Of a stretch of 32,000 nt of DNA, positions 1,379 through 29,531 are shown piece by piece. Within the stretch, counting starts at the first letter, position 1; each line of letters starts with the position of its first letter. The notes beneath the pieces were generated by a model. The model saw only the letters and a list, made by a program, of their open reading frames with translations, was not told where the DNA came from and ran no database searches. The translations under genes and the position numbers were made by a program. This DNA comes from Phycisphaera mikurensis NBRC 102666 (lineage in GTDB: Bacteria > Planctomycetota > Phycisphaerae > Phycisphaerales > Phycisphaeraceae), in assembly GCF_000284115.1 (NCBI RefSeq), contig NC_017080.1:1440001-1472000 (forward strand), in the 5' to 3' direction.

Positions 1379-1430
1379 GGCGCTACATGAGCCGCTCGCA
1401 CGGAAGCGCTCGGTGACCGCGCCTTTGAAC

Positions 1431-1568
1431 GAGCAGCGCTTCGCTTGAACACAGAGGGCACAGAGGCACAGAGGCACAGAGAGAGGCACAGGGCAAGGCG
1501 GAGAGAGTCCGCTCCCCCCTTGGGCCTCCGTGCCTCTTCTCCCTCCGTGTTTCAGAGAAGCGTTGCTC
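1431..1568. repeat. Intercistronic palindromic element, family A copy 1 (arms of tandem octamer CACAGAGG)
   Basis: Left end is GAGCAGCGCTTCGCTTGAACACAGAGGG followed by CACAGAGG units (1450-1489). The reverse complement of the right end reads GAGCAACGCTTCTCTGAAACACGGAGGG...AGAAGAGGCAC. It lies between the urtA stop and the urtBC start. Boundaries are approximate (+/- 5 nt). Confidence 0.75.
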
Positions 1569-1627
1569 GGGATCACACCGAGGTGCACACGCTTCTTGGG
1601 ATGATCTGAACTTCTGCCACCGGGTCC

Positions 1628-4639: not shown

Positions 4640-4684
4640 GGGCCCGTTTCTCGACCTGCGGTGTCCGGGGACCGGAAGCATCGC

Positions 4685-4835
4685 GGGCACCGCTGCGCGG
4701 AACACGGAGGGCACGGAGGCACAGAGGCACGGAGAGAGGCACCGAGGTGGAGCGAGCGAGTTCCTGCTTGCCTCTGTGTCCTCCTCCGTGCCTCTGTGCC
4801 TCCTCTTCCTCTGTGATGGAGCGAAGCGACTGCCC
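4685..4835. repeat. Intercistronic palindromic element, family A copy 2
   Basis: Left end is GGGCACCGCTGCGCGGAACACGGAGGGCACGGAGGCACAGAGGCACGGAGAGAGGCAC. The reverse complement of the right end reads GGGCAGTCGCTTCGCTCCATCACAGAGGAAGAGGAGGCACAGAGGCACGGAGG. It lies between the urtBC stop (4639) and the urtD start (4857). The ORF-track extension 4608-4856 is read through this element. Confidence 0.8.
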
Positions 4836-7090: not shown

Positions 7091-7096
7091 TCCGCG

Positions 7097-7142
7097 CCGC
7101 GGACCGCGGGCGATCGGCGGCGACGCGGCCCGCGGTCCGCGG
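7097..7142. repeat. Inverted pair of the 13-mer CCGCGGACCGCGG / CCGCGGTCCGCGG (hairpin after the Uma2 stop)
   Basis: CCGCGGACCGCGGG at 7097-7110 and its complement CCCGCGGTCCGCGG at 7129-7142, separated by 18 nt. It starts 7 nt after the TGA at 7088-7090. Confidence 0.7.
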
Positions 7143-7179
7143 GCGCGACGCCGCGGTTCGGATCTGCCATGCTCCCGGC

Positions 7180-10968: not shown

Positions 10969-11297
10969 GCGATTGCGGACCATCGCCCACGGCCGCGGCC
11001 GCGGGCACACCCGGTGCGGCGGGCTCGCTTCGCCGCGGATCAAGAGGCGGGAGCGGCCCGGAGGCCCGCGGTCCGCGGATTTCGCTCCTGTCAGCTTGGC
11101 AGGCGCTCCCGGACGAGCCGGGGGGCTGGGCAGCGCCCCGGCGCCCTCACGGGGCCGCAGGAGGCTTCCGCGCGGCTCCACCGGCATGGCTCCCGAGCGG
11201 CACCGGCTTTGCACAAGCCCGGCGGTGGCGGCCGCTCCCCGCCCGCCGCCGACCCTTCCGGGTTCCACCACTCCACCCGCAACCTCAAGGAACAACC

Positions 11298-14776: not shown

Positions 14777-14786
14777 CGCCGGCCCG

Positions 14787-14832
14787 CCGCGGACCGCCGG
14801 CCCGGGCGACGCCCGCGGCCGGCGGTCCGCGG
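14787..14832 (+). terminator. Perfect 16-bp GC hairpin after radA (variant of the CCGCGGWCCGCGG motif)
   Basis: CCGCGGACCGCCGGCC (14787-14802) and GGCCGGCGGTCCGCGG (14817-14832) with a 14-nt loop. It starts 11 nt after the radA stop. There is no U-tract, so terminator function is an inference. Confidence 0.45.
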
Positions 14833-14966
14833 ATGCCGCGCAGGGCACCGGCTCGCCGGGCGGCCGGCGCCGGGCGGCGCGTCCGGATCGCCCGGCACTG
14901 CTCGCGGCAACGGCGGGCGACCCGCCCGCCCGGGTGCGGCGACGACCGATCTGGCAGGATGCCGCC

Positions 14967-16294: not shown

Positions 16295-17536
16295 CTAGGG
16301 GGCGCGGCGATCGGGCCGCAGGGCGGCCCGAGCCTGCCGCAGCACCGCCCCGGCCACCCCGGGCCTGCCGCTCTCGGCCTCGGTGTCCCGGCGGATCATC
16401 TCGAGGGCTCCGGCGGGCAGCAGGCCCAGCCGGACCAGGTGCCCCGCGGCCTCCGCGCTGTCGTGAACGAGAAAGGCCGGCGTGCCGGCGGCGCGGGCCG
16501 CGGCGAGGTGGGCCTCGGCGTCGCGGTCGCGGCGGCTGCGTTGGCCCGCGTCGACGTCGCGGATCAGAACGGCGGCGATCCGCCCGGGCCGCTCGCGCAC
16601 CAGCCTCTCGTACAGGTGCGGATCGGCCTGGCCGCTGTCTCCGATGAGCAGGAAGGGCAGGCCGGGGAACGCATCCACCAGGTCGCGGGCCTTGTCGAGC
16701 TTGTGCGTGTGGCCGGGCCGCTTGATGAACTTCGACCGGTCCAGCCCCAGGTCCTGCAGCAGCAGCGGGCCCACGGGCAGCCGGTTGAGCCGGAGGAAGT
16801 CGGTGAGCAGGTCGTGGAGGTTCCAGGCGGAACTCGAGACGTAGAAGAAGGGCGCGGGTTCCTCTCCCGCCGCCTCGAGCGCGGCGTAGAGCGCGGCGAC
16901 CCCGGGCAGCGGCTTCCGCGTCCGAGCGTTGTGCAGGAAGGTCAGCCTCGCCGCGGTGAGCAGGTTGGTGATGCCGGTGTGGATCACCGTGTCGTCGAGG
17001 TCGGAGACGACGCCGAAGGGCGCTCGAAGACCCGGCCGGATCACCGGCAGCTCGCTCTCTACCGCCGCGCCGCGGACCGCGGCCTCCCGGGCGGGATCGA
17101 CGCCGCGGTCCGCGGCGCTGTCGGCGACGAGCAGGCGGGCGAGCCCCGCGTCCGCCTCCGGCGGCGGCGAGATCCGGAACCACGCGTAGCCCTCCTCGTC
17201 GGCGGTCACGCTCTGGGCCTGCGTGCCCAGCGTGGCGGTCACCTCCGCGTGCGGCACCTCCTGCGTGTCCCACCGCCGGTAGGTGTTCCGCAGGTTGTCC
17301 CACCAGCGATCCTTCTCGCGCGGCCCCCCGCCCAGCGGCGTCGCCAGCACGCGGCACCCGAAGACCGCTCGCGCCTCACCGCCCGCGGCCGCGTGGTGCG
17401 TGTTGTCCCACCCGGTGAAGGGGATCACCGACCGCGGCTTGCCACCGCCCAACGCCCGGCGGAACACGTTCCACCAGCGGTCCAGGGACGCCTCGAGCTC
17501 GTGGAGCCAGGCGTGGAGGAAGCGGGGGAGAGGCAT
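16295..17536 (-). CDS. App1-family (DUF2183) phosphatidate phosphatase-like protein
   Basis: ATG at 17536 (MPLPRFLHAW...). The DxDxT motif is VVSDLDDTVIHTG, and FFYVSSSAWNLHDLLTDFL ... PVGPLLLQDLG ... LLIGDSGQADP is typical of the App1 catalytic domain. The track ORF extension to 17671 reads through an octamer repeat and is rejected. Confidence 0.65.
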   Translation of the reverse strand: MPLPRFLHAWLHELEASLDRWWNVFRRALGGGKPRSVIPFTGWDNTHHAAAGGEARAVFGCRVLATPLGGGPREKDRWWDNLRNTYRRWDTQEVPHAEVTATLGTQAQSVTADEEGYAWFRISPPPEADAGLARLLVADSAADRGVDPAREAAVRGAAVESELPVIRPGLRAPFGVVSDLDDTVIHTGITNLLTAARLTFLHNARTRKPLPGVAALYAALEAAGEEPAPFFYVSSSAWNLHDLLTDFLRLNRLPVGPLLLQDLGLDRSKFIKRPGHTHKLDKARDLVDAFPGLPFLLIGDSGQADPHLYERLVRERPGRIAAVLIRDVDAGQRSRRDRDAEAHLAAARAAGTPAFLVHDSAEAAGHLVRLGLLPAGALEMIRRDTEAESGRPGVAGAVLRQARAALRPDRRAP

Positions 17537-17749
17537 GGCTGCGCCAGGCAAGCGGAGAAGCGGAGAAGCGAAGAAGCGAAGAAGCGGAGAAGCGAAGAAG
17601 CGGAGAAGCGGAGAAGCGAAGGAGTCGAGAGCGAAGAAGTCAGGCCGGATGCGGCGGCTGCGCCATCTCAAACGAGCTTGTCGCTGCTTCTGCTGGCTTC
17701 TTCGCTTCCGGACTTCCCGGCTTCTTCGCTCGATCCGCGCAGCGGACGC
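17532..17749. repeat. Intercistronic palindromic element, family B copy 1, with 9 tandem octamers AAGCGRAG (17550-17621)
   Basis: The left terminus is GGCATGGCTGCGCCAGGCAAGCGGAGAAGCGG... The reverse complement of the right terminus reads GCGTCCGCTGCGCGGATCGAGCGAAGAAGCC... The arms are unequal. The element fills the whole gap between the glyQS stop (17750-17752) and the App1-like start (17534-17536). Confidence 0.8.
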
Positions 17750-19318
17750 TCAACACCCCTTCTCCGCCAGGAACGCCGCCACCCGATCGATTCCCACCCT
17801 CTCCTGCTGGGTCGTGTCGCGGTCGCGGATCGTGACGACGTTGTTCTCGAGGGTGTCACCGTCGACGGCGATGCAGAAGGGCGTGCCGATCTCGTCCATG
17901 CGGGCGTAACGCTTGCCGATGGTCTGCTTGGCGTCGTACTCGCAGGCGAACCTCTGGCGGAGCTCCATGTAGAGCTTGTGGGCGACCTCGGGCATCCCGT
18001 CCTTGTTCACGAGCGGGAAGACGCCGGCCTTCACCGGGGCGAACTTCGGCTTGAACTTCATGACGTAGTCCGAGCCGGATCGCTCGGGGCTCGGCGTGAA
18101 GGCCTCGCAGAGCAGCACGAGGACGGCCCGCGTGAGGCCGCTGGCGGGCTCGATGACGTGCGGCGTGTAGCGCGACCGCTCCTTGATCTCGTCCTTGCCG
18201 ACGCCCTCGGCTTTGAGCCGCAGCTGCAGCTCCTGGTCGAAGTAGTCGAGCTTCGCGTTGCTGGCGCGGGTGTGCGCCGTCAGGTCGAAGTTGCCGCGGT
18301 GCGCCACGCCCTCGAGCTCGCCGAAGCCCGGGGCGGTGAAGGGGTAGCGGTACTCGACGTCGACGCAGGCGGACGAGTAGTGGGCCAGCTCGTCGGACCC
18401 GTGGTCCCGGAAGCGCAGGTTCGCTTGGTCGATGCCCAGCGACTCCCACCAGCGCATCCGCTCGTGCTTCCAGAAGTCGTACCACTTGGGCGCCTCCTCC
18501 TCGCTGCAGAACCACTCCATCTCCATCTGCTCGAACTCGCGGGAGCGGAAGATGAAGTTCCGCGGCGTGACCTCGTTGCGGAAGCTCTTGCCGATCTGCG
18601 CGATCCCGAAGGGCACCTTCACCCGCATCGTGTTCAGCACGTTGAGGTAGTTGAGGAAGATGCCCTGCGCGGTCTCGGGCCGCAGGTAGGCCTTGTTCTC
18701 CTCGTTGCGGATGACACCGGGGTAGGTGTCGAGCATGAGGTTGAACTCACGCGGCGGGGTGAGCGTGCCGGCCTTGTCGGTGTCGGGGGCGACGATGGTG
18801 CCGTAGAGCGACTCGTCCACCTGGCTGAGGTTCTTCACCTCGCCGTCGTCGATCGTGACGCCGGCTTTCCTCAGCTTCTTCGCGATGGCGTCGGGCTTGT
18901 TCTCGGGGAAGGCCCAGGCTCCTCTGCCCTCGACGAAGAGCACCTCGACCTGGTCCTGCCGGTACCGGCCGTTGGTCTCGCGGCAGTCGACCATCGGATC
19001 GCTGAAGCCGCCGACGTGGCCGGAGGCCTCCCACACCTTCGGGTTCTGGATGATCGCCGAGTCCAGCCCGAGCACCGAGAGCGGCTCGCCGGAGTCGGGA
19101 TCCAGCGGCGGGCACTCCACCGTCTGGTGCCACCAGTGGTCGCGGACGTGGTTCTTCAGCGCCGTCCCCAGCGGGCCGTAGTCCCAGAAGCCGTTGATGC
19201 CGCCGTAGATCTCCGAGGCGGGAAAGACGAAGCCGCGCCGCTTGCAGAGCGACACGAGCGCCTCCATCGAGCGGGCGGCGTCGGCGGGCGGGGTCGGTCG
19301 CTGGGCGGGGGCGGTCAT
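17750..19318 (-). CDS. glyQS: Glycine--tRNA ligase (homodimeric class II GlyQS type)
   Basis: ATG at 19318 (MTAPAQRP...). Motifs: LCKRRGFVFPASEIYGGINGFWDYGPLG, IAQIGKSFRNEVTPRNFIFRSREFEQMEMEWF, and an anticodon-binding C-terminus. Confidence 0.95.
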   Translation of the reverse strand: MTAPAQRPTPPADAARSMEALVSLCKRRGFVFPASEIYGGINGFWDYGPLGTALKNHVRDHWWHQTVECPPLDPDSGEPLSVLGLDSAIIQNPKVWEASGHVGGFSDPMVDCRETNGRYRQDQVEVLFVEGRGAWAFPENKPDAIAKKLRKAGVTIDDGEVKNLSQVDESLYGTIVAPDTDKAGTLTPPREFNLMLDTYPGVIRNEENKAYLRPETAQGIFLNYLNVLNTMRVKVPFGIAQIGKSFRNEVTPRNFIFRSREFEQMEMEWFCSEEEAPKWYDFWKHERMRWWESLGIDQANLRFRDHGSDELAHYSSACVDVEYRYPFTAPGFGELEGVAHRGNFDLTAHTRASNAKLDYFDQELQLRLKAEGVGKDEIKERSRYTPHVIEPASGLTRAVLVLLCEAFTPSPERSGSDYVMKFKPKFAPVKAGVFPLVNKDGMPEVAHKLYMELRQRFACEYDAKQTIGKRYARMDEIGTPFCIAVDGDTLENNVVTIRDRDTTQQERVGIDRVAAFLAEKGC

Positions 19319-22458: not shown

Positions 22459-22542
22459 GCCCGCGTGGCGGAATTGGCAGACGCGCCGTCTTCAGGTGGC
22501 GGTTCCTTCACCGGAGTACAGGTTCGACTCCTGTCGCGGGCA
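22459..22542 (+). tRNA. tRNA-Leu (anticodon CAG)
   Basis: Manual cloverleaf: acceptor GCCCGCG/CGCGGGC, D-arm GCGGAATTGGCAGACGC, anticodon stem CCGTC/GGCGG with loop TTCAGGT, a long variable arm, T-arm ACAGG-TTCGACT-CCTGT, discriminator A. No CCA is encoded. Confidence 0.92.
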
Positions 22543-22615
22543 TACGAGACGGCCCGGCACGTGGTGCCGGGCGGTCGCGTGCGCCGAGCGCGGCGGGGTA
22601 CGCTGCGGGCTCGCC

Positions 22616-22699
22616 GCGGGCGTGGCGGAACTGGCAGACGCGCGAGATTTAGGTTCTCGTTCCAGCGATGGAGTGCAGGTTCGATCCCTGTCGCCCGCA
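22616..22699 (+). tRNA. tRNA-Leu (anticodon TAG)
   Basis: Acceptor GCGGGCG/CGCCCGC, D-arm GCGGAACTGGCAGACGC, anticodon stem CGAGA/TCTCG with loop TTTAGGT, a long variable arm, and a T-loop TTCGATC. Confidence 0.92.
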
Positions 22700-22806
22700 A
22701 GCACCTCCGGGGCCCCCCGCGTGTGGAGGCGGACGCGCCGCTGCGGGTGCGGGGCGGTGCCTGCGGGCCGTGCGGCGCTTCGCTAGAGTGGCCGCCCAGC
22801 GACTGA

Positions 22807-22879
22807 GGCCAGATAGCTCAGTTGGTAGAGCACAGCATTGAAAATGCTGGGGTCGCCGGTTCGAGCCCGGCTCTGGCCA
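22807..22879 (+). tRNA. tRNA-Phe (anticodon GAA)
   Basis: GGCCAGATAGCTCAGTTGGTAGAGCACAGCATTGAAAATGCTGGGGTCGCCGGTTCGAGCCCGGCTCTGGCCA folds as a canonical 73-nt cloverleaf with anticodon loop TTGAAAA. Confidence 0.95.
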
Positions 22880-22880
22880 C

Positions 22881-22918
22881 GAAACAAGCTCCGGGCCCCC
22901 GGGCCCGGAGCTTGTTTC
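22881..22918 (+). terminator. Intrinsic terminator after the tRNA cluster
   Basis: A perfect 17-bp stem, GAAACAAGCTCCGGGCC-CCCG-GGCCCGGAGCTTGTTTC, starts directly after tRNA-Phe. The 3' arm ends in TTTC. Confidence 0.75.
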
Positions 22919-23009
22919 GTGCGGCGGGCCGGCGGTGGTCGGCGGCCCCGGACCGCCCGCGCGCGTCTGCGACCGGTGGTGCCGGTGCGGTGCCCGGTAG
23001 CGTCCGCCC

Positions 23010-24882: not shown

Positions 24883-24950
24883 GGACGAAGCGTACGGAGC
24901 GGCGTCGGCGGCGCTGCCGCTCCTGCCCCGGGCCGACGCTCTTAGCGCAC

Positions 24951-25092
24951 CGTGCGCAATTTTCCGATCGCCTCTGCGGGCGAGTCGTGCCCCTCGCTTC
25001 ATCGGCTGCATCGCCCTGCAGGGGCAGGGCTGCTTCGCCTCCTCACGAGGAACACGACGCGCGGACGCAGGCCGATCGGAAAATTGCGCACG
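24951..25092. mobile_element. MITE-like element with perfect 20-bp terminal inverted repeats (CGTGCGCAATTTTCCGATCG)
   Basis: The left TIR is at 24951-24970 and the right TIR (CGATCGGAAAATTGCGCACG) at 25073-25092. The 102-bp interior is itself an imperfect palindrome centred on GCCCTGCAGGGGCAGGGC. CTTAG lies on both flanks (24941-24945 and 25096-25100). There is no coding capacity. Confidence 0.65.
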
Positions 25093-25096
25093 ATGC

Positions 25097-25897: not shown

Positions 25898-27612
25898 TCG
25901 GCCCTCAGCGCCTCCACCGGGTCCTCGGCCGACGCCCGCAGCGCCGGCACCACCGCACCCAGCACGCTGGAGACCACCGCGCCCAGCGCGATCAGCACCA
26001 CCTCGGCGGCGTCCAGGTTCGTGGGGATCGTGTCGAAGAAGTAGGTCTTGGGGTCCCACATCACGAAGCGGTACGCGGCGTTGAGCCGCTGGGCGTACCC
26101 CCCGCGGAAGAGCACGAGCCCCAGCGCCGGGAGGAAGAGCAGCAGCGCCCCGCCGGGCACCAGCCGCCGCAGCCACCACGCCATCGCCTGGCGGACGAAG
26201 CCGATCGCCACCGCCAGCGTCCCGCCCGCCGCGGCCCCGACCCCCAGCGCCCCCACGAGCAGCCCGGTGACGCCCAGGTACGTCGCGAGGAAGTGCTGGA
26301 TCGCGTTGAGCTGCAGCACGACCGCGACCGCCAGCGCCACGCCCGCGGCCGCCCCGACCACACCCACCGCCAGGCCGTAGCCCAGGAACAGCCCGAGGAC
26401 GCCCGAGCGGGCCGCCCCGATGGCGCGGAGCACGCCGATGTCGCGGGTCTTGGCGAGCACGATCATGTAGAAGGTCGTCGCGACCATCACCACGGCCACG
26501 CCGCTGATGACGACGAACAAGAAGGTGACCATGCCCTTCTCGTTCTGCACCGCGCCGATGAGCTGGCCGTGCATCTCGACCCAGGTGTAGGTGAGCGGGG
26601 GCACCCCGGCGTCCCGCTCGCGGCGGAGCGCATCCCAATGGTCCCCGACGAGCTCGGCGACGCGGCGGCGTGCCCCGCCGAGCTCGGCGTCGTCGTCGGT
26701 GTCGATCGCGTCGGCGAGCTTCACGATCACCTGCGTCACGCGGCCGGACACCCGCACCCGCTCGCCGCCGAGCCCGGTCAGCGGGTCGAAGCCGGCGACG
26801 CCCTCGAACGGGGCCATCTGCAGGGCCCGCTGCAGCACGCCCAGCGGCACCATGACCGTGCCGGAGTCCACCTCGTACAGCCCGCTCTTGAAGTCGTTGG
26901 CGACCGCCAGCGGCACGCGGACCGGCTCGTAGCTGCCCGGCGTGCCGCGCTCGTTGAGCGGGACGAGCGTGAGCGTGAATTCGCGACCGACCCAGCTGGT
27001 GCCGAAGCCGTACACGCCCGCGTCGTCGCGCCGGTTCCCGCCGTGGACCTCCACCCCGGTGATCGCGCCGGCCACCGGCGCGGGCGCGTCCGCGGTCGCC
27101 GGACCCGGGTCGGTCGGGAAGGGCGGGTCCAGCGCCCCGCCGAGCCCCGCCGGCGCCGGCGGCTCGTAGAAGCCGTATGAAGCGAGTTCCTCCCGCCGCT
27201 GCTGGACCTCCTCCTCGCTCCAGACCAGCCGCTCCTCCAGCCCCACCACCTCGTCGAAGGCGGGGAAGTCGACGCCTTGGACCTGCACGGGCTTGAAGAC
27301 GCCGCCGAGGTTCAGCAGCCCGAACCAGCGGATCGAAGGCGTCGCGCTCGCGACGATCTCGTCCTCCTCCAGCGCCTCGATCAGCCCCTCGTACCCGCTG
27401 AAACCGCCGTAGGGGTTGTACGCCTCGATCACCAGGTCGCCGGTGATCGCGTGGGCCGCCCGCTTCAGCTCCGTCAGGAACCCGCCCATCACCGAGATGA
27501 CGATGATCACCATCGCCGTGCACAGCGTCACCGCCAGCGCCGCCAGCAGCGGCGCGAGCTGGCGGCGGAGGTAGGCGAAGATGAGGGCGAGGAGGTACAT
27601 GGGGCGGGGCAT
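25894..27612 (-). CDS. ABC transporter permease, FtsX/MacB/LolC-E family with large extracytoplasmic domain
   Basis: 572 aa. The N-terminal TM is LAPLLAALAVTLCTAMVIIVISVMGGF, followed by a ~280-aa loop. The C-terminal FtsX-type module is VVISGVAVVMVATTFYMIVLAKTRDIGVLRAIGAARSGVLGLFLGYG. The ATG at 27612 lies inside the terminus of a repeat element; the second Met at 27600 (MYLLALIF) is an alternative start. Confidence 0.8.
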   Translation of the reverse strand: MPRPMYLLALIFAYLRRQLAPLLAALAVTLCTAMVIIVISVMGGFLTELKRAAHAITGDLVIEAYNPYGGFSGYEGLIEALEEDEIVASATPSIRWFGLLNLGGVFKPVQVQGVDFPAFDEVVGLEERLVWSEEEVQQRREELASYGFYEPPAPAGLGGALDPPFPTDPGPATADAPAPVAGAITGVEVHGGNRRDDAGVYGFGTSWVGREFTLTLVPLNERGTPGSYEPVRVPLAVANDFKSGLYEVDSGTVMVPLGVLQRALQMAPFEGVAGFDPLTGLGGERVRVSGRVTQVIVKLADAIDTDDDAELGGARRRVAELVGDHWDALRRERDAGVPPLTYTWVEMHGQLIGAVQNEKGMVTFLFVVISGVAVVMVATTFYMIVLAKTRDIGVLRAIGAARSGVLGLFLGYGLAVGVVGAAAGVALAVAVVLQLNAIQHFLATYLGVTGLLVGALGVGAAAGGTLAVAIGFVRQAMAWWLRRLVPGGALLLFLPALGLVLFRGGYAQRLNAAYRFVMWDPKTYFFDTIPTNLDAAEVVLIALGAVVSSVLGAVVPALRASAEDPVEALRAE

Positions 27613-27786
27613 CCGCTGCGCGGATCAAGCAAAGAAGCGAGGAAGCGAAGAAGAGGGAGAGTCAGACAAGCCGTCGGGGCTTCGCCTGCCACACCGAGGA
27701 GACGCTACCGGTGCCGACTGCTTCACTTGCTGACTTCTTCGCTTCTTCGCTTCTCCGCTTCCTCGCTCGATCCGCGCAGCGGATGC
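27609..27786. repeat. Intercistronic palindromic element, family B copy 2
   Basis: The left end is GCATCCGCTGCGCGGATCAAGCAAAGAAGCGAGGAAGCGAAGAAG. The reverse complement of the right end reads GCATCCGCTGCGCGGATCGAGCGAGGAAGCGGAGAAGCGAAGAAGCGAAGAAG. It overlaps the last 64 nt of lysS and the permease start codon. Confidence 0.85.
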
Positions 27787-29405
27787 GTCCCCACCGGCTT
27801 CATCAGCGGAAACGCCAGTACATCCCGGATCGAGCTCTTGTTCGTCAGCAGCATCACCAGGCGGTCGATGCCGATGCCCAGGCCGCCGGCGGGCGGCATG
27901 CCGACCTTCAGGGCGTCGAGGAAGTCCAGGTCCAGGTTGCGGAAGGTGTTCTCCTCCGCATCGCCGCCGAGCTGCTCGCGGAAGTTCGCTTCCTGCACGT
28001 CGGGGTCGTTGAGCTCGGTGTAGGCGTTGGCGAGCTCCATGCCGGCGACGAACAGCTCGAAGCGCTCGGCGATCGTCGGGTCGTCGGGCTTCCGCTTCGT
28101 CAGCGGGCACAGGCTGGCGGGGTACTCCACGACGAAGGTCGGCTGGATGAGGTGCTTCTCGACGGTCTCCTCCCACAGCGCGTTGAGCAGCACGTCGGGG
28201 TGGACGCCGCCGGTCTGCAGGCCCAGGGCTCTGGCCTTGGCCAGGACGCGGGCGGCGCCCTTCTCGCCGCGGGCGTCCCAGCCGTTGTGCTCGGCGAAGA
28301 GGTCGTGGTAGCTCGCCCGGCGGAAGGCGCCGAAGTCGATCTCGTGGTCGCCGTAGGGCCGCTTCAGCGAGCCGAGCACCTCGCCGGCGAGGTGCTCGAC
28401 GAGGCCCTGGGTGTGGTGGAGGATGCTTTCGAGGTCGCCGTAGGCCTCGTAGAGCTCGAGCATCGTGAACTCGGGGTTGTGGCTGCGGTCCACGCCCTCG
28501 TTGCGGAAGTTGCGGTTGATCTCGAAGACCCTCGGCAGGCCGCCCACGAGCAGGCGCTTGAGGTACAGCTCCGGGGCGATCCGCAGGAACAGCTCCAGGT
28601 CCAGCGCGTTGTGGTGGGTGACGAAGGGCCGGGCCGCGGCGCCGCCGGGCACGGGCTGCATCATCGGGGTCTCGACCTCGAGGAAGCCGCGGCCCTCGAA
28701 GAAGTCGCGGGTCGCCTTGATGAGCCTCGACCGCGTCTGCAGCGTCGCGAGGCCCTCGGGGTTGCTCCAGAGGTCGACGTGCCGGCGCCGGTACCGCTGC
28801 TCGGGATCGGTGAGGCCGTGGAACTTGCCCGGCGGGAGCGCGAGGCTCTTGGTGAGCAGGCGGAAGGTGAGCCCGCCGGTGGGGTCCTCCCGGTGCTCGA
28901 TGCCGACGGAGGACGCGTCCGGATCGGCGGAGGGGTCGCCGCCGGGCCCGGCCCAGACCGTCACCTCGCCGGTCTTGGTCTGCGCCAGCGGACCCCGCGC
29001 CGCGACGAGGTCCGCGAGGTCGACCAGCTTCGCGACCTTGAAGGCCTCCGGCCCGACCGCCTTCTTCGAGACCGCCACCTGCAGGTCCACCCCGGAGTGG
29101 TCCCGCAGCGACAGGAAGAGCAGGTTGCCCATCAGCCGCTGCTGCACCACGCGGCCCGCGACGGCGACGATCGGCCGGTCGTCGCCGGAGGCGGGATCCT
29201 CCTTGAACCAGCGATCGGCCTCGGCGTCGTACAGCGCCCGGGCGGCGGCGAGCGAGACGAGCCCGTCCTGCCGCGTGCCGAAGGGGTCGATCCCGTGCTC
29301 GCTCCGGAGCTTGTCGAGCTTGGCCCGCCGGGCGGCCAGCAGCTCCTCGGTGGAAGCGGAGGAGGCGTTGGGCGGCGGAGCGGTTCTCGGGGGGTCGGGG
29401 TTCAT
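27723..29405 (-). CDS. lysS: Lysine--tRNA ligase (class II)
   Basis: 560 aa with ATG at 29405. Class II motifs: FLEVETPMMQ, LYLRIAPELYLKRLLVGG-like (FLRIAPELYLKRLLVGGL), VFEINRNFRNEG, GGLGIGIDRLVMLL. The C-terminal ~21 aa after FPLMKP are encoded by the repeat element. Confidence 0.95.
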   Translation of the reverse strand: MNPDPPRTAPPPNASSASTEELLAARRAKLDKLRSEHGIDPFGTRQDGLVSLAAARALYDAEADRWFKEDPASGDDRPIVAVAGRVVQQRLMGNLLFLSLRDHSGVDLQVAVSKKAVGPEAFKVAKLVDLADLVAARGPLAQTKTGEVTVWAGPGGDPSADPDASSVGIEHREDPTGGLTFRLLTKSLALPPGKFHGLTDPEQRYRRRHVDLWSNPEGLATLQTRSRLIKATRDFFEGRGFLEVETPMMQPVPGGAAARPFVTHHNALDLELFLRIAPELYLKRLLVGGLPRVFEINRNFRNEGVDRSHNPEFTMLELYEAYGDLESILHHTQGLVEHLAGEVLGSLKRPYGDHEIDFGAFRRASYHDLFAEHNGWDARGEKGAARVLAKARALGLQTGGVHPDVLLNALWEETVEKHLIQPTFVVEYPASLCPLTKRKPDDPTIAERFELFVAGMELANAYTELNDPDVQEANFREQLGGDAEENTFRNLDLDFLDALKVGMPPAGGLGIGIDRLVMLLTNKSSIRDVLAFPLMKPVGTHPLRGSSEEAEKRRSEEVSK

Positions 29406-29454
29406 GAGGCTCTCGGGGCGGCGCAGGGCGCAGCAGAACGGGCCCGGCGGTCAC

Positions 29455-29502
29455 GCCGCGGACCGAGCCGGATTCCGTCGGATTCCGTCGACGGTCCGCG
29501 GC
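29455..29502. repeat. Hairpin built on the CCGCGGACC motif, with tandem GGATTCCGTC x2 in the loop
   Basis: GCCGCGGACCG (29455-29465) pairs with CGGTCCGCGGC (29492-29502), an 11-bp perfect stem. The loop contains GGATTCCGTCGGATTCCGTC. It lies between the rplS stop and the lysS start. Confidence 0.6.
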
Positions 29503-29531
29503 CGAGCGACCGCGGGCGTCCCGCCACGCGG

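What the first reader, a model, noticed from the sequence alone, without database searches (positions are those of the whole stretch)
17532..17749. Second family-B copy: nine tandem octamers next to a start codon, with the same ATG-in-terminus arrangement
The entire glyQS to App1-like gap is one element. Its left arm holds nine head-to-tail AAGCGRAG units (17550-17621, period 8, so not codon-phased), far more than the right arm, which makes the hairpin asymmetric. As in the other B copy, the outer terminus (GGCATGGCTGCGCC...) contains the start codon of the downstream gene. Both downstream proteins begin MP.P (MPLP and MPRP) from similar G-rich flanks (GGGGAGAGGCAT and GGGGCGGGGCAT). The glyQS stop codon abuts the other terminus. 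Either the element carries an outward-facing ATG, or it targets start-codon regions. The octamer array 14 nt from the ATG is also a plausible slipped-strand length-variable tract.
Basis: seen in the sequence. Interest (0 to 1): 0.7.

Follow-up and report, generated by a model that had tools for sequence, protein, structure and literature searches.

The report
Octamer-armed hairpin repeat abutting a start codon
The glyQS–APP1 spacer of Phycisphaera mikurensis is one copy of an apparently undescribed family of non-coding hairpin repeats with arms made of tandem 8-base units; its outermost three bases coincide with the APP1 start codon, but the family neither supplies nor targets start codons as a rule.

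Summary
Window 17537-17749 is a single 213-nt non-coding element. It has nine exact AAGCGRAG units at 17550-17621, against two exact and four degenerate units in the opposite arm. It runs flush from the glyQS stop codon to the APP1 start codon.

The window is Phycisphaera mikurensis. The element belongs to a multi-copy foldback family. Each copy has a terminal GC stem-loop around a GCTGCGC core, usually tagged CAT on the outside, then purine-octamer arm, loop and pyrimidine arm. At least three B-type copies lie within about 40 kb, and sister families use other octamers.

- The outward ATG is part of the conserved terminal block. A relative carries the same 22-nt terminus in the same spacer, inverted, where it starts nothing.
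- The APP1 ATG sits at the ancestral start position.
- In the other B copy the terminal ATG is not the lolE start. The native start (MYLL...) lies 12 nt downstream, so "MPRP" is an annotation extension.
- Other copies end 10-57 nt from start codons, so there is no start-codon targeting.

Array number and unit sequence differ between copies and species, and one-arm expansions recur. That shows slippage over evolutionary time. Present-day phase variation could not be tested.

Verdict: a new variant of MITE/REPIN-like repeats, of moderate interest.

The parts
17534..17536 (-). APP1-like start codon (ATG on the minus strand). It is also the outermost three bases of the element's left terminal block.
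   Evidence: Close homologues start at the same aligned position, M[RP][ILV]P. The cross-species 22-mer identity begins exactly at this CAT.
17534..17549 (.). Left terminal block CATGGCTGCGCCAGGC. It contains a small stem-loop TGGC-TGC-GCCA (17536-17546) around the family core GCTGCGC.
   Evidence: The same block occurs in L197/L196. The terminal-hairpin set is 92% paired, with 5 of 6 pairs showing double changes.
17550..17621 (.). Nine exact head-to-tail AAGCGRAG octamers. On the sense (minus) strand this is the pyrimidine-rich 3' arm CTYCGCTT.
17622..17645 (.). Two degenerate octamers and the loop-edge motif AAGTCAGG.
   Evidence: The motif AAGTCAG(C)A recurs at the loop edge of related elements.
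17646..17686 (.). Central loop. It contains an internal copy of the terminal motif GGCTGCGCCA (17656-17665).
   Evidence: (direct repeat D5).
17687..17731 (.). Right arm with degenerate CTTCGCTT-type units (2 canonical, about 4 degenerate). On the sense strand this is the purine-rich 5' arm.
17732..17749 (.). Right terminal block GATCCGCGCAGCGGACGC with stem-loop TCCGC-GCA-GCGGA. The outer tag here is CGT instead of CAT.
   Evidence: 16 of 17 positions match the terminus of the other B copy.
17750..17752 (-). glyQS stop codon (TGA), immediately adjacent to the element.
27610..27786 (.). Sister copy B1 in the lysS-lolE spacer. It has a 57-nt inverted repeat including a perfect 17-nt terminal inverted repeat (CATCCGCTGCGCGGATC / GATCCGCGCAGCGGATG) and 3-4 octamers per arm.
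   Evidence: (-124.5 kcal/mol, z = -11).
27598..27600 (-). Native lolE-like start codon (MYLL...), 12 nt outside the terminal ATG of B1 at 27610-27612.
1430..1571 (.). Sister-family copy A1 (CACAGAGG octamers), same hairpin architecture.
   Evidence: z = -7.7.
4684..4822 (.). Sister-family copy A2 (CACGGAGG/CACAGAGG octamers). Its 5' terminus is CCGCTGCGCGGA.
   Evidence: z = -7.4.

Best explanation
The spacer is one degenerate copy (B2) of a multi-copy, non-coding, foldback-type palindromic repeat family of Phycisphaera genomes.

A copy is built from five parts:
1. A terminal block: a 4-6 bp GC stem around the core GCTGCGC, usually tagged CAT on its outer side.
2. An arm of tandem purine-rich octamers.
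3. A loop.
4. The complementary pyrimidine arm.
5. A second terminal block.

Copies spread or are homogenised within a genome. The arrays turn over quickly by replication slippage. I infer that the two arms are kept complementary by templated correction between them.

B2 has undergone a one-arm expansion to nine exact units. It sits inside the glyQS-to-APP1 transcription unit (co-transcription is inferred, not shown). Its RNA would fold into a hairpin of roughly -96 to -99 kcal/mol. The base of that hairpin brings the glyQS stop codon next to the APP1 AUG.

The APP1 start codon is at its ancestral position and at the same time is the outermost CAT of the terminal block. This is a flush junction at this locus, not a general property of the family. 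The family does not normally donate or target start codons.
For: **Identity and non-coding nature**
- The organism and genes were identified.
- The element is 63% GC with flat GC3 of 0.59-0.65 in all frames. The flanking genes have GC3 of 0.94-0.97.
- Nothing reaches any Rfam family's gathering score.

**Multi-copy family**
- Two B copies lie in the window. A third sits at the start of L199, about 2 kb left of the window.
- Sister families with other octamers occur in P. mikurensis and in five related metagenome genomes.

**Within-genome similarity exceeds orthologous similarity**
- The 5' halves of B1 and B2 are near-identical.
- The same spacers in relatives carry other octamers, or a GTAG-tagged repeat doublet instead.
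- The same 22-nt terminus lies in the opposite orientation in the orthologous spacer of L197. That requires re-insertion, not simple descent.

**Hairpin**
- B2 folds at -99.3 kcal/mol, z = -2.8 against dinucleotide shuffles and z = -5.7 against mononucleotide shuffles. B1 has z = -11.
- Terminal stem-loops show compensatory changes.

**Slippage**
- Unit number and sequence vary among copies.
- An independent one-arm expansion, 4 versus about 20 units, occurs in L193.

**Start codons**
- The APP1 ATG is ancestral.
- The lolE native start is 12 nt beyond the B1 terminus.
Against: - No transposase, no target-site duplication and no empty orthologous site were found. Mobility is therefore inferred from distribution only.
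- All 12 orthologous spacers examined (glyQS-APP1, lysS-lolE, lolD-next gene) are occupied by some long hairpin. That fits a selected structure as well as it fits a safe haven for insertions.
- Only about 40 kb of the P. mikurensis genome could be read, so the genome-wide copy number is unknown.
- The set of terminal hairpins was picked by eye, so it is partly circular.
- B2's termini are not a matched inverted repeat.
Confidence: 0.7

Rival explanations
1. Selected RNA-level punctuation. The hairpin is kept at operon junctions because, in the polycistronic mRNA, it acts as a processing site (for example for RNase III), a 3'-end stabiliser or U-tract-less terminator, or a device that couples or masks translation of the downstream gene. 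Which sequence forms the stem would be irrelevant.
For: - All 12 orthologous spacers examined are occupied by a strong hairpin despite complete sequence turnover.
- The hairpin base juxtaposes the glyQS stop and the APP1 AUG. The AUG is predicted mostly paired, with P(unpaired) = 0.14.
- In B1 the lysS reading frame runs 21 codons into the 5' arm, so a terminating ribosome would open the stem.
- The genome lacks Shine-Dalgarno motifs.
Against: - There is no strand bias in stability. The sense RNA is more stable than the antisense in only 8 of 18 elements, and G-U pairs are not enriched on the sense strand. This fits a DNA-level palindrome better.
- The APP1 AUG accessibility is within the range of other genes.
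- No U-tract terminator signature is present.
- There are no expression data.
Confidence: 0.25
2. Contingency locus. The nine-unit octamer tract changes length at high frequency by slipped-strand mispairing and thereby switches or tunes APP1 expression.
For: - A tandem array of 9 units lies 13 nt from the start codon.
- Arrays of this class range from 3 to about 20 units among loci and species.
- Short-read assemblies break inside such arrays.
Against: - The units are a mixture of two variants in an irregular order, not a homogeneous tract.
- There is no promoter-spacer or in-frame logic, because period 8 lies in a non-coding spacer.
- APP1 is a housekeeping-type lipid phosphatase, not a surface antigen.
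- The only independent data set, a Logan contig covering the other B copy, is identical to the window.
Confidence: 0.08
3. The family regularly donates or targets start codons. Its outward ATG would be used as the initiation codon of whatever gene lies downstream, or insertion would be directed to ATG start sites.
For: - The terminal block begins with CAT in most copies.
- In B2 it is the APP1 start.
- In B1 it is in frame with lolE.
Against: - The lolE native start is 12 nt downstream, and the terminal ATG is fully paired.
- In L193 and L194 the terminal ATG lies 16 and 25 nt upstream of the lolE start and is out of frame.
- In L197 the same terminus faces a stop codon.
- The third B copy ends GGATCC.
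- Other copies end 10-57 nt from start codons.
Confidence: 0.1
4. The tract is protein-coding: an N-terminal extension of APP1, or a glyQS-APP1 read-through linker. The frame is open from the glyQS stop to the APP1 ATG.
For: The frame is open for 71 codons, and a TTG at 17671 gives a 458-aa ORF.
Against: - GC3 is 0.65 versus 0.94-0.97 in the neighbouring genes.
- All close homologues start at the ATG.
- An open frame of 71 codons is unremarkable at this GC content. My estimate from base composition is a chance of about 0.3.
- The repeat period is 8.
Confidence: 0.02

Closest known systems
REPINs (doublets of REP sequences mobilised by RAYT transposases; Bertels & Rainey 2011, PMC3116915; Di Nocera et al. 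2013, PMC3733652)
   Same: - Short GC-rich terminal stem-loops with a conserved unpaired tag.
- Two such units in inverted orientation folding into a larger hairpin.
- Intergenic location, mostly downstream of coding regions between co-directional genes.
- Multi-copy and genome-specific sequence types.
   Different: - The tag is CAT (or CGT/GAT), not GTAG.
- Stems are 4-6 bp.
- The two terminal units are separated by about 150-180 nt made of tandem octamer arrays rather than a short spacer.
- No RAYT transposase was identified.
- True GTAG-tagged doublets do occupy the same spacer in relatives L100, L102 and L198, which shows the two kinds are distinct.
Bacterial MITEs such as the Correia/NEMIS elements of Neisseria (from my own knowledge)
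   Same: Small, non-coding and palindromic. They are inserted next to genes, co-transcribed, and fold into long RNA hairpins. They can overlap gene ends.
   Different: No target-site duplication was seen, no related insertion sequence is known, and the arms are tandem-repeat arrays.
Eukaryotic foldback (FB) transposons (from my own knowledge)
   Same: Long inverted arms built from short tandem repeats. Copy number of the units varies between arms and between copies.
   Different: This is a bacterial host and the element is an order of magnitude smaller. The resemblance is one of architecture only.
Tandem heptamer repeats of cyanobacteria (STRR-type), e.g. (GACYAAT)x8 overlapping the recO start codon in Nostoc PCC7120 (bioRxiv 10.1101/2022.06.06.494920)
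   Same: Tandem 7-8 nt units in non-coding DNA within 100 nt of start codons, sometimes overlapping them. A regulatory role is suspected.
   Different: Those arrays are not described as the arms of a hairpin with terminal stem-loops. The period is 7, not 8.
Simple-sequence contingency loci and MIRU-type intercistronic repeats (from my own knowledge)
   Same: A tandem repeat close to a start codon (contingency loci). Repeats filling an intercistronic gap flush with the stop and start codons (MIRU).
   Different: The units are heterogeneous, polymorphism has not been shown, and the whole forms a hairpin.

Membership tests
MITE | Small (<600 bp) and non-coding | tested here: met
   213 nt. GC3 is 0.59-0.65 in all frames versus 0.94-0.97 in the neighbouring genes.
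MITE | Matched terminal inverted repeats | tested here: inconclusive
   B1 has a perfect 17-nt terminal inverted repeat inside a 57-nt inverted repeat. B2's two termini are different variants of the same motif, CGTCCGCTGCGCGGATC versus CCTGGCGCAGCCATG.
MITE | Target-site duplication flanking the element | tested here: not met
   No direct repeat flanks B1 or B2. The flanks are gagagg/ctcaac for B2 and ggcgggg/cgtcccc for B1.
MITE | Many dispersed copies in one genome | tested here: met
   At least 3 B-type and at least 4 other octamer-armed copies lie in about 40 kb. The whole-genome count is not available.
MITE | A parent insertion sequence or transposase with the same ends | not testable with these tools
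None was found in the 40 kb read.
REP / REPIN | A 20-40 nt imperfect palindrome with a conserved GTAG (or CGTC) tag at one end | tested here: not met
   Terminal stem-loops are about 15 nt and are tagged CAT in most copies. One terminus reads CGTC. However, the CGTC families are described with 8-9 bp stems (PMC3733652).
REP / REPIN | Two units in inverted orientation, close together, folding into one hairpin | tested here: inconclusive
   The units are inverted and the whole folds. But they lie about 150-180 nt apart, separated by the octamer arrays.
REP / REPIN | A cognate RAYT gene flanked by the repeats | not testable with these tools
Phase-variable simple-sequence contingency locus | A homogeneous tandem tract | tested here: not met
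   Two unit variants occur in the irregular order GGAAGAGGA.
Phase-variable simple-sequence contingency locus | Copy-number polymorphism within a strain or population | not testable with these tools
   No reads are available. The second assembly of the same strain is not retrievable. The Logan contig L195 covers B1 only and is identical to the window.
Known RNA families (Rfam 15) | A match at the family's gathering score | tested here: not met
   Only three tRNAs in the window pass. The spacer gives far sub-threshold matches to long-hairpin miRNA precursor models.

The most novel reading that the evidence does not exclude
Phycisphaera genomes maintain a self-renewing class of intercistronic hairpins. 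The arms would be generated by octamer slippage and kept complementary by templated (quasipalindrome) correction. The hairpins would persist at the same operon junctions across species because they punctuate polycistronic mRNAs, through processing, 3'-end protection, or stop-to-start juxtaposition that couples translation in a lineage without Shine-Dalgarno sites. The CAUG-tagged terminal stem-loop would occasionally be co-opted as, or mask, the downstream start codon, as at APP1.
Probability: 0.2. Interest if true: 0.7.

Novelty: new variant of a known kind. Interest (0 to 1): 0.42.

Why it matters
If confirmed genome-wide, this would add a structurally distinct class to the catalogue of bacterial intergenic repeats: a foldback element with tandem-octamer arms and CAT-tagged GCTGCGC stem-loops. 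It would come from a phylum, Planctomycetota, where such repeats are hardly described.

It has practical consequences for annotation:
- The elements extend or replace gene ends. The lysS tail is one example, and the lolE 'MPRP' start is another.
- Pyrimidine arms can be read as signal peptides.
- Short-read assemblies break inside the arrays.

It also offers a natural system for studying how slippage and arm-to-arm correction shape long palindromes. And it poses a question about translation: how does APP1 initiate at an AUG buried at the foot of a ~-100 kcal/mol hairpin in an organism without Shine-Dalgarno sites?

Tried and rejected
1. **Genome-contig scan** with the terminus GCTYGATCCGCGCAGCGGA. 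All 97 hits were coding-sequence noise, many from the penicillin-binding-protein motif LDPRSGE. P. mikurensis itself was not returned.
2. **Protein search with the peptide encoded by the pyrimidine arm**, intended to fish out gene calls that run into other copies. It gave six unrelated hits (Burkholderia, Treponema) and none from Phycisphaera.
3. **PLSDB plasmid search** with B1. No match.
4. **Metagenome scan** for AGCGAAGAAG-N70-100-CTTCTTCGCT.
   - Most of the 90 loci are chance matches or palindromic assembly chimeras.
   - A few are genuine octamer- or nonamer-armed hairpins (L105, L153/L177, L137, L163, and the L122 group).
   - L153 has a TGCTGCGCAGCA stem-loop next to about 20 AAGCGAAG-like units.
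5. **Rfam.** Nothing reaches any family's gathering score.
6. **'Purine arm always 5' of the downstream gene' as an orientation bias.** Rejected, because an inverted repeat reads purine-then-pyrimidine on both strands. It is a family property (14 elements purine-first, 0 the other way), not an orientation.
7. **Sense versus antisense RNA stability** as a test for RNA-level selection. No bias: 8 of 18.
8. **Independent-strain comparison.** The Logan contigs L195 and L199 come from the same sequencing run. L195 is 100% identical to the window.
9. **CGTC-tagged REP membership** was considered because one terminus reads CGTC. Rejected on stem length.
10. **Literature searches** found no description of these repeats.
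Full report
**Source and genes**

The window is from Phycisphaera mikurensis. The APP1-like protein encoded at 16295-17536 (minus strand) is 100% identical to 'App1 family protein [Phycisphaera mikurensis]'. It lies on GCA_014207395.1 contig JACHEL010000003.1 and on a 3,803,225-bp contig.

Pfam confirms an APP1 catalytic domain downstream of the finding and a single-chain glycyl-tRNA synthetase upstream. Both are on the minus strand. The other B copy lies between lysS and a LolE/FtsX-type permease.

**The observation**

- Tandem Repeats Finder gives period 8, 8.6 copies and 93% matches at 17550-17618, plus a period-24 super-repeat.
- Cutting the tract gives nine exact AAGCGRAG units, then two degenerate ones.
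- A three-unit pattern is never seen in shuffled windows.
- The opposite arm has only two canonical and about four degenerate units.
- The element fills the 213-nt gap. The glyQS TGA (17752-17750) is directly followed by GCGTCCGCTGCGCGGATC, and the other end runs ...GCCTGGCGCAGCC-ATG into APP1.
- It is not coding. It is 63% GC, with GC3 of 0.59-0.65 in all frames against 0.94-0.97 in the neighbouring genes.
- The frame from the glyQS stop to the APP1 ATG is open. That is unremarkable at this GC content.
- Folded as the sense RNA it gives -99.3 kcal/mol. The z-score is -2.8 against dinucleotide shuffles and -5.7 against mononucleotide shuffles.
- The symmetric sister copy B1 gives -124.5 kcal/mol, z = -11.
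- Nothing reaches any Rfam family's gathering score.

**A family, not a singleton**

B1 and B2 share a highly similar 5' ~70 nt in sense orientation: terminus, first units and loop edge. A third B-type end (...CTTCGCTTGCCTCCGCGCAGCGGATCC) lies about 11 nt from the ureF stop, roughly 2 kb left of the window. A short-read contig breaks inside its array.

The same architecture with other octamers occurs in these places:
- CACAGAGG at window 1430-1571 and 4684-4822.
- AAGAGACG and (AG)n/CGTCTCTT just right of the window.
- GGGGAAGA, GAAAGAGA and AAAGNNAC in five related metagenome genomes.

In all 14 elements detected by a purine-run/pyrimidine-run scan, the purine arm comes first and never the reverse. 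Because an inverted repeat reads the same on both strands, this is a property of the family, not an orientation relative to genes.

The termini are small GC stem-loops around the core GCTGCGC. In a hand-collected set of 15, 92% of cells are paired. Five of six pairs show changes on both sides, and 0 of 500 shuffles reach the observed covariation. The set was chosen by eye, so this is indicative only.

**Comparison of orthologous spacers**

Close APP1 homologues (75-82% identity) keep the glyQS-APP1 gene order. Their spacers differ:
- L100, L102 and L198 carry a doublet of GTAG-tagged palindromes, which is REPIN-like. In L198 the glyQS stop codon TAG lies inside the tag.
- L101 and L197 carry octamer-armed hairpins with GAGAGAAA-type units.

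The L197 element begins on the glyQS side, on the sense strand, with CATGGCTGCGCCAGGCAAGCGG. This is 22/22 identical to the left terminus of B2, which in P. mikurensis lies on the antisense strand at the APP1 side. The identity starts exactly at the C of CAT, and the flanks are unrelated. So the same terminus sits in the same spacer in opposite orientation. That cannot be produced by inverting the loop. It implies re-insertion or replacement.

The lysS-lolE and lolD-next-gene spacers show the same pattern:
- Every species examined has a long hairpin there, but with different arms.
- L193 shows an independent one-arm expansion, 4 purine units against about 20 pyrimidine units.

Within a genome, copies resemble each other more than they resemble their orthologous counterparts. 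That is the signature of duplicative spread or homogenisation.

**The start codons**

*APP1.* All close homologues start M[RP][ILV]P at the same aligned codon. The coding sequence downstream is conserved and the upstream sequence is not. The ATG at 17536-17534 is therefore the ancestral start. By the L197 comparison it is also the first three bases of the element's terminal block. Whether the native ATG was retained or replaced cannot be decided.

*lolE.* About twenty homologues, from 100% down to 45% identity, start MY[KLV]xLLI..YLRR. One of them is the same protein called from MYLL in another assembly.
- The native start is 27600-27598, preceded by gccccgcccc.
- That is the C-rich, Shine-Dalgarno-free leader seen at most starts in this region.
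- The terminal ATG of B1 (27612-27610) lies 12 nt upstream. It is predicted to be fully base-paired, whereas the native AUG is about 50% unpaired.
- In L193 and L194 the homologous terminal ...GCGGCATG lies 16 and 25 nt upstream of the lolE start and is out of frame.

So the outward ATG is a conserved tag of the terminus. It is present at 4 of the 5 P. mikurensis B-family termini seen and in L101, L193, L194 and L197. It is used as a start only where it happens to coincide with one.

The 'MP.P / G-rich flank' resemblance is explained by the C-rich leader next to lolE and by ancestral Leu-Pro-Arg codons in APP1.

**Mechanism**

Shown:
- A non-coding palindromic repeat.
- A multi-copy family.
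- Different occupants, or a flipped orientation, at orthologous sites.
- Arrays that differ in unit and number while termini are conserved.
- Recurrent one-arm expansions.

Inferred:
- Copies spread by transposition or gene conversion. No transposase or target-site duplication was seen.
- Arrays grow by replication slippage.
- Arms are kept complementary by templated correction between them.
- The element is co-transcribed and folds, so that the glyQS stop and the APP1 AUG sit at the foot of one helix.

The APP1 AUG is predicted to be mostly paired, with P(unpaired) = 0.14. That is within the range of other genes here.

A test for RNA-level selection gave no bias. Sense RNA was more stable than antisense in only 8 of 18 elements. 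This favours a DNA-level palindrome over a strand-specific RNA structure. On the other side, constant occupancy of the same spacers keeps a functional role open.

**What is known**

The held literature contains no description of these repeats in Phycisphaera or other Planctomycetes. The nearest described kinds are:
- GTAG/CGTC-tagged REPs and REPINs (PMC3733652, PMC3116915).
- Bacterial MITEs.
- Eukaryotic foldback transposons, by architecture only.
- Tandem heptamers next to cyanobacterial start codons.

Membership of the REP families fails on tag and stem length. MITE membership fails on target-site duplication.

A metagenome scan shows genuine octamer-armed hairpins in other uncultured organisms. 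One has a TGCTGCGCAGCA stem-loop beside about 20 AAGCGAAG-like units. The kind is therefore probably wider than this genus.

**Verdict**

The element is a new variant of a known kind of intergenic repeat, of moderate interest.

The most informative open points are the genome-wide distribution of termini relative to codons, read-level octamer counts, and transcript mapping across the hairpin.

Noticed in passing
window 27723-27790 (lysS 3' end): The annotated LysS (560 aa) reads about 21 codons into the purine arm of B1 (...MKPVGT-HPLRGSSEEAEKRRSEEVSK*). Relatives end with different tails right after FPLM[KR]P. The element therefore supplies the C-terminal tail and stop codon of lysS.
   Followed up: partly
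window 24883-25096: A different hairpin element has a 24-nt terminal inverted repeat (GCACCGTGCGCAATTTTCCGATCG), -138 kcal/mol and z = -7.5. It starts directly after the lolD stop codon. The orthologous spacer in L101, L193 and L194 holds octamer-armed hairpins instead.
   Followed up: partly
L099 1515-1715 (= about 35899-36100 in extended window coordinates): The annotated start of the 332-aa gene after pgk lies in the loop of an AAGAGACG-type element. Its N-terminus MKPTRSLLNPSLRLFVSLSLALCGAAGAPASAQ is encoded by the pyrimidine arm plus the terminal stem-loop and looks like a signal peptide. A similar case is L101 2498 (MTVARRLTLLSFSLSLFFAFSL...). This is either exaptation or a mis-called start.
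   Followed up: no
L100 9777-10000, L102 9781-10000, L198 3002-3297: The glyQS-APP1 spacer of three relatives holds a doublet of GTAG-tagged palindromes (CGTAGGGCAGGC...GCCTGCCCTACG), which is REPIN-like. In L198 the glyQS stop codon TAG is part of the GTAG tag.
   Followed up: partly
window 7091-7179, 14777-14966, 29406-29531, 10969-11297, 17067-17118: A recurrent GC-rich palindrome built on CCGCGGACCG / CGGTCCGCGG occurs in several spacers and once inside the APP1 gene. It may be another REP-like family or U-tract-less terminators.
   Followed up: no
window-wide start sites: Start codons in this region lack Shine-Dalgarno motifs. They are typically preceded by a C-rich run, for example ccgcccc-ATG.
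   Followed up: partly
L193 12420-12690: An extreme one-arm expansion: about 4 purine octamers face about 20 pyrimidine octamers (CCCTCTTY). These are followed by a CGGC-GCA-GCCG stem-loop just before the next gene's GTG.
   Followed up: partly
L099 3040-3175 (divergent pgk/gcvT spacer): This element combines an (AG)19 run with five CGTCTCTY octamers. It has a GGCGGC-GCA-GCCGCC stem-loop at its centre rather than at its ends. A short-read contig breaks inside it.
   Followed up: no
metagenome loci L105, L153, L177, L137, L163, L122/L155/L164/L172/L185: Uncultured organisms with 52-61% GC carry hairpins with arms of tandem octamers or nonamers (AAGCGAAG, AGCGAAAT, CACAAAAGG). Many other hits of that scan are palindromic assembly chimeras.
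   Followed up: partly
window 22459-22879 and 22867-22932: Three tRNA genes lie here. The last is followed by a near-perfect 32-nt palindrome that overlaps its 3' end, which looks like a terminator.
   Followed up: no
window 17537-17752: The glyQS TGA is in frame with APP1, with no further stop between them. Read-through of the stop codon would fuse the two proteins through a 71-residue linker. This is probably a chance feature.
   Followed up: partly
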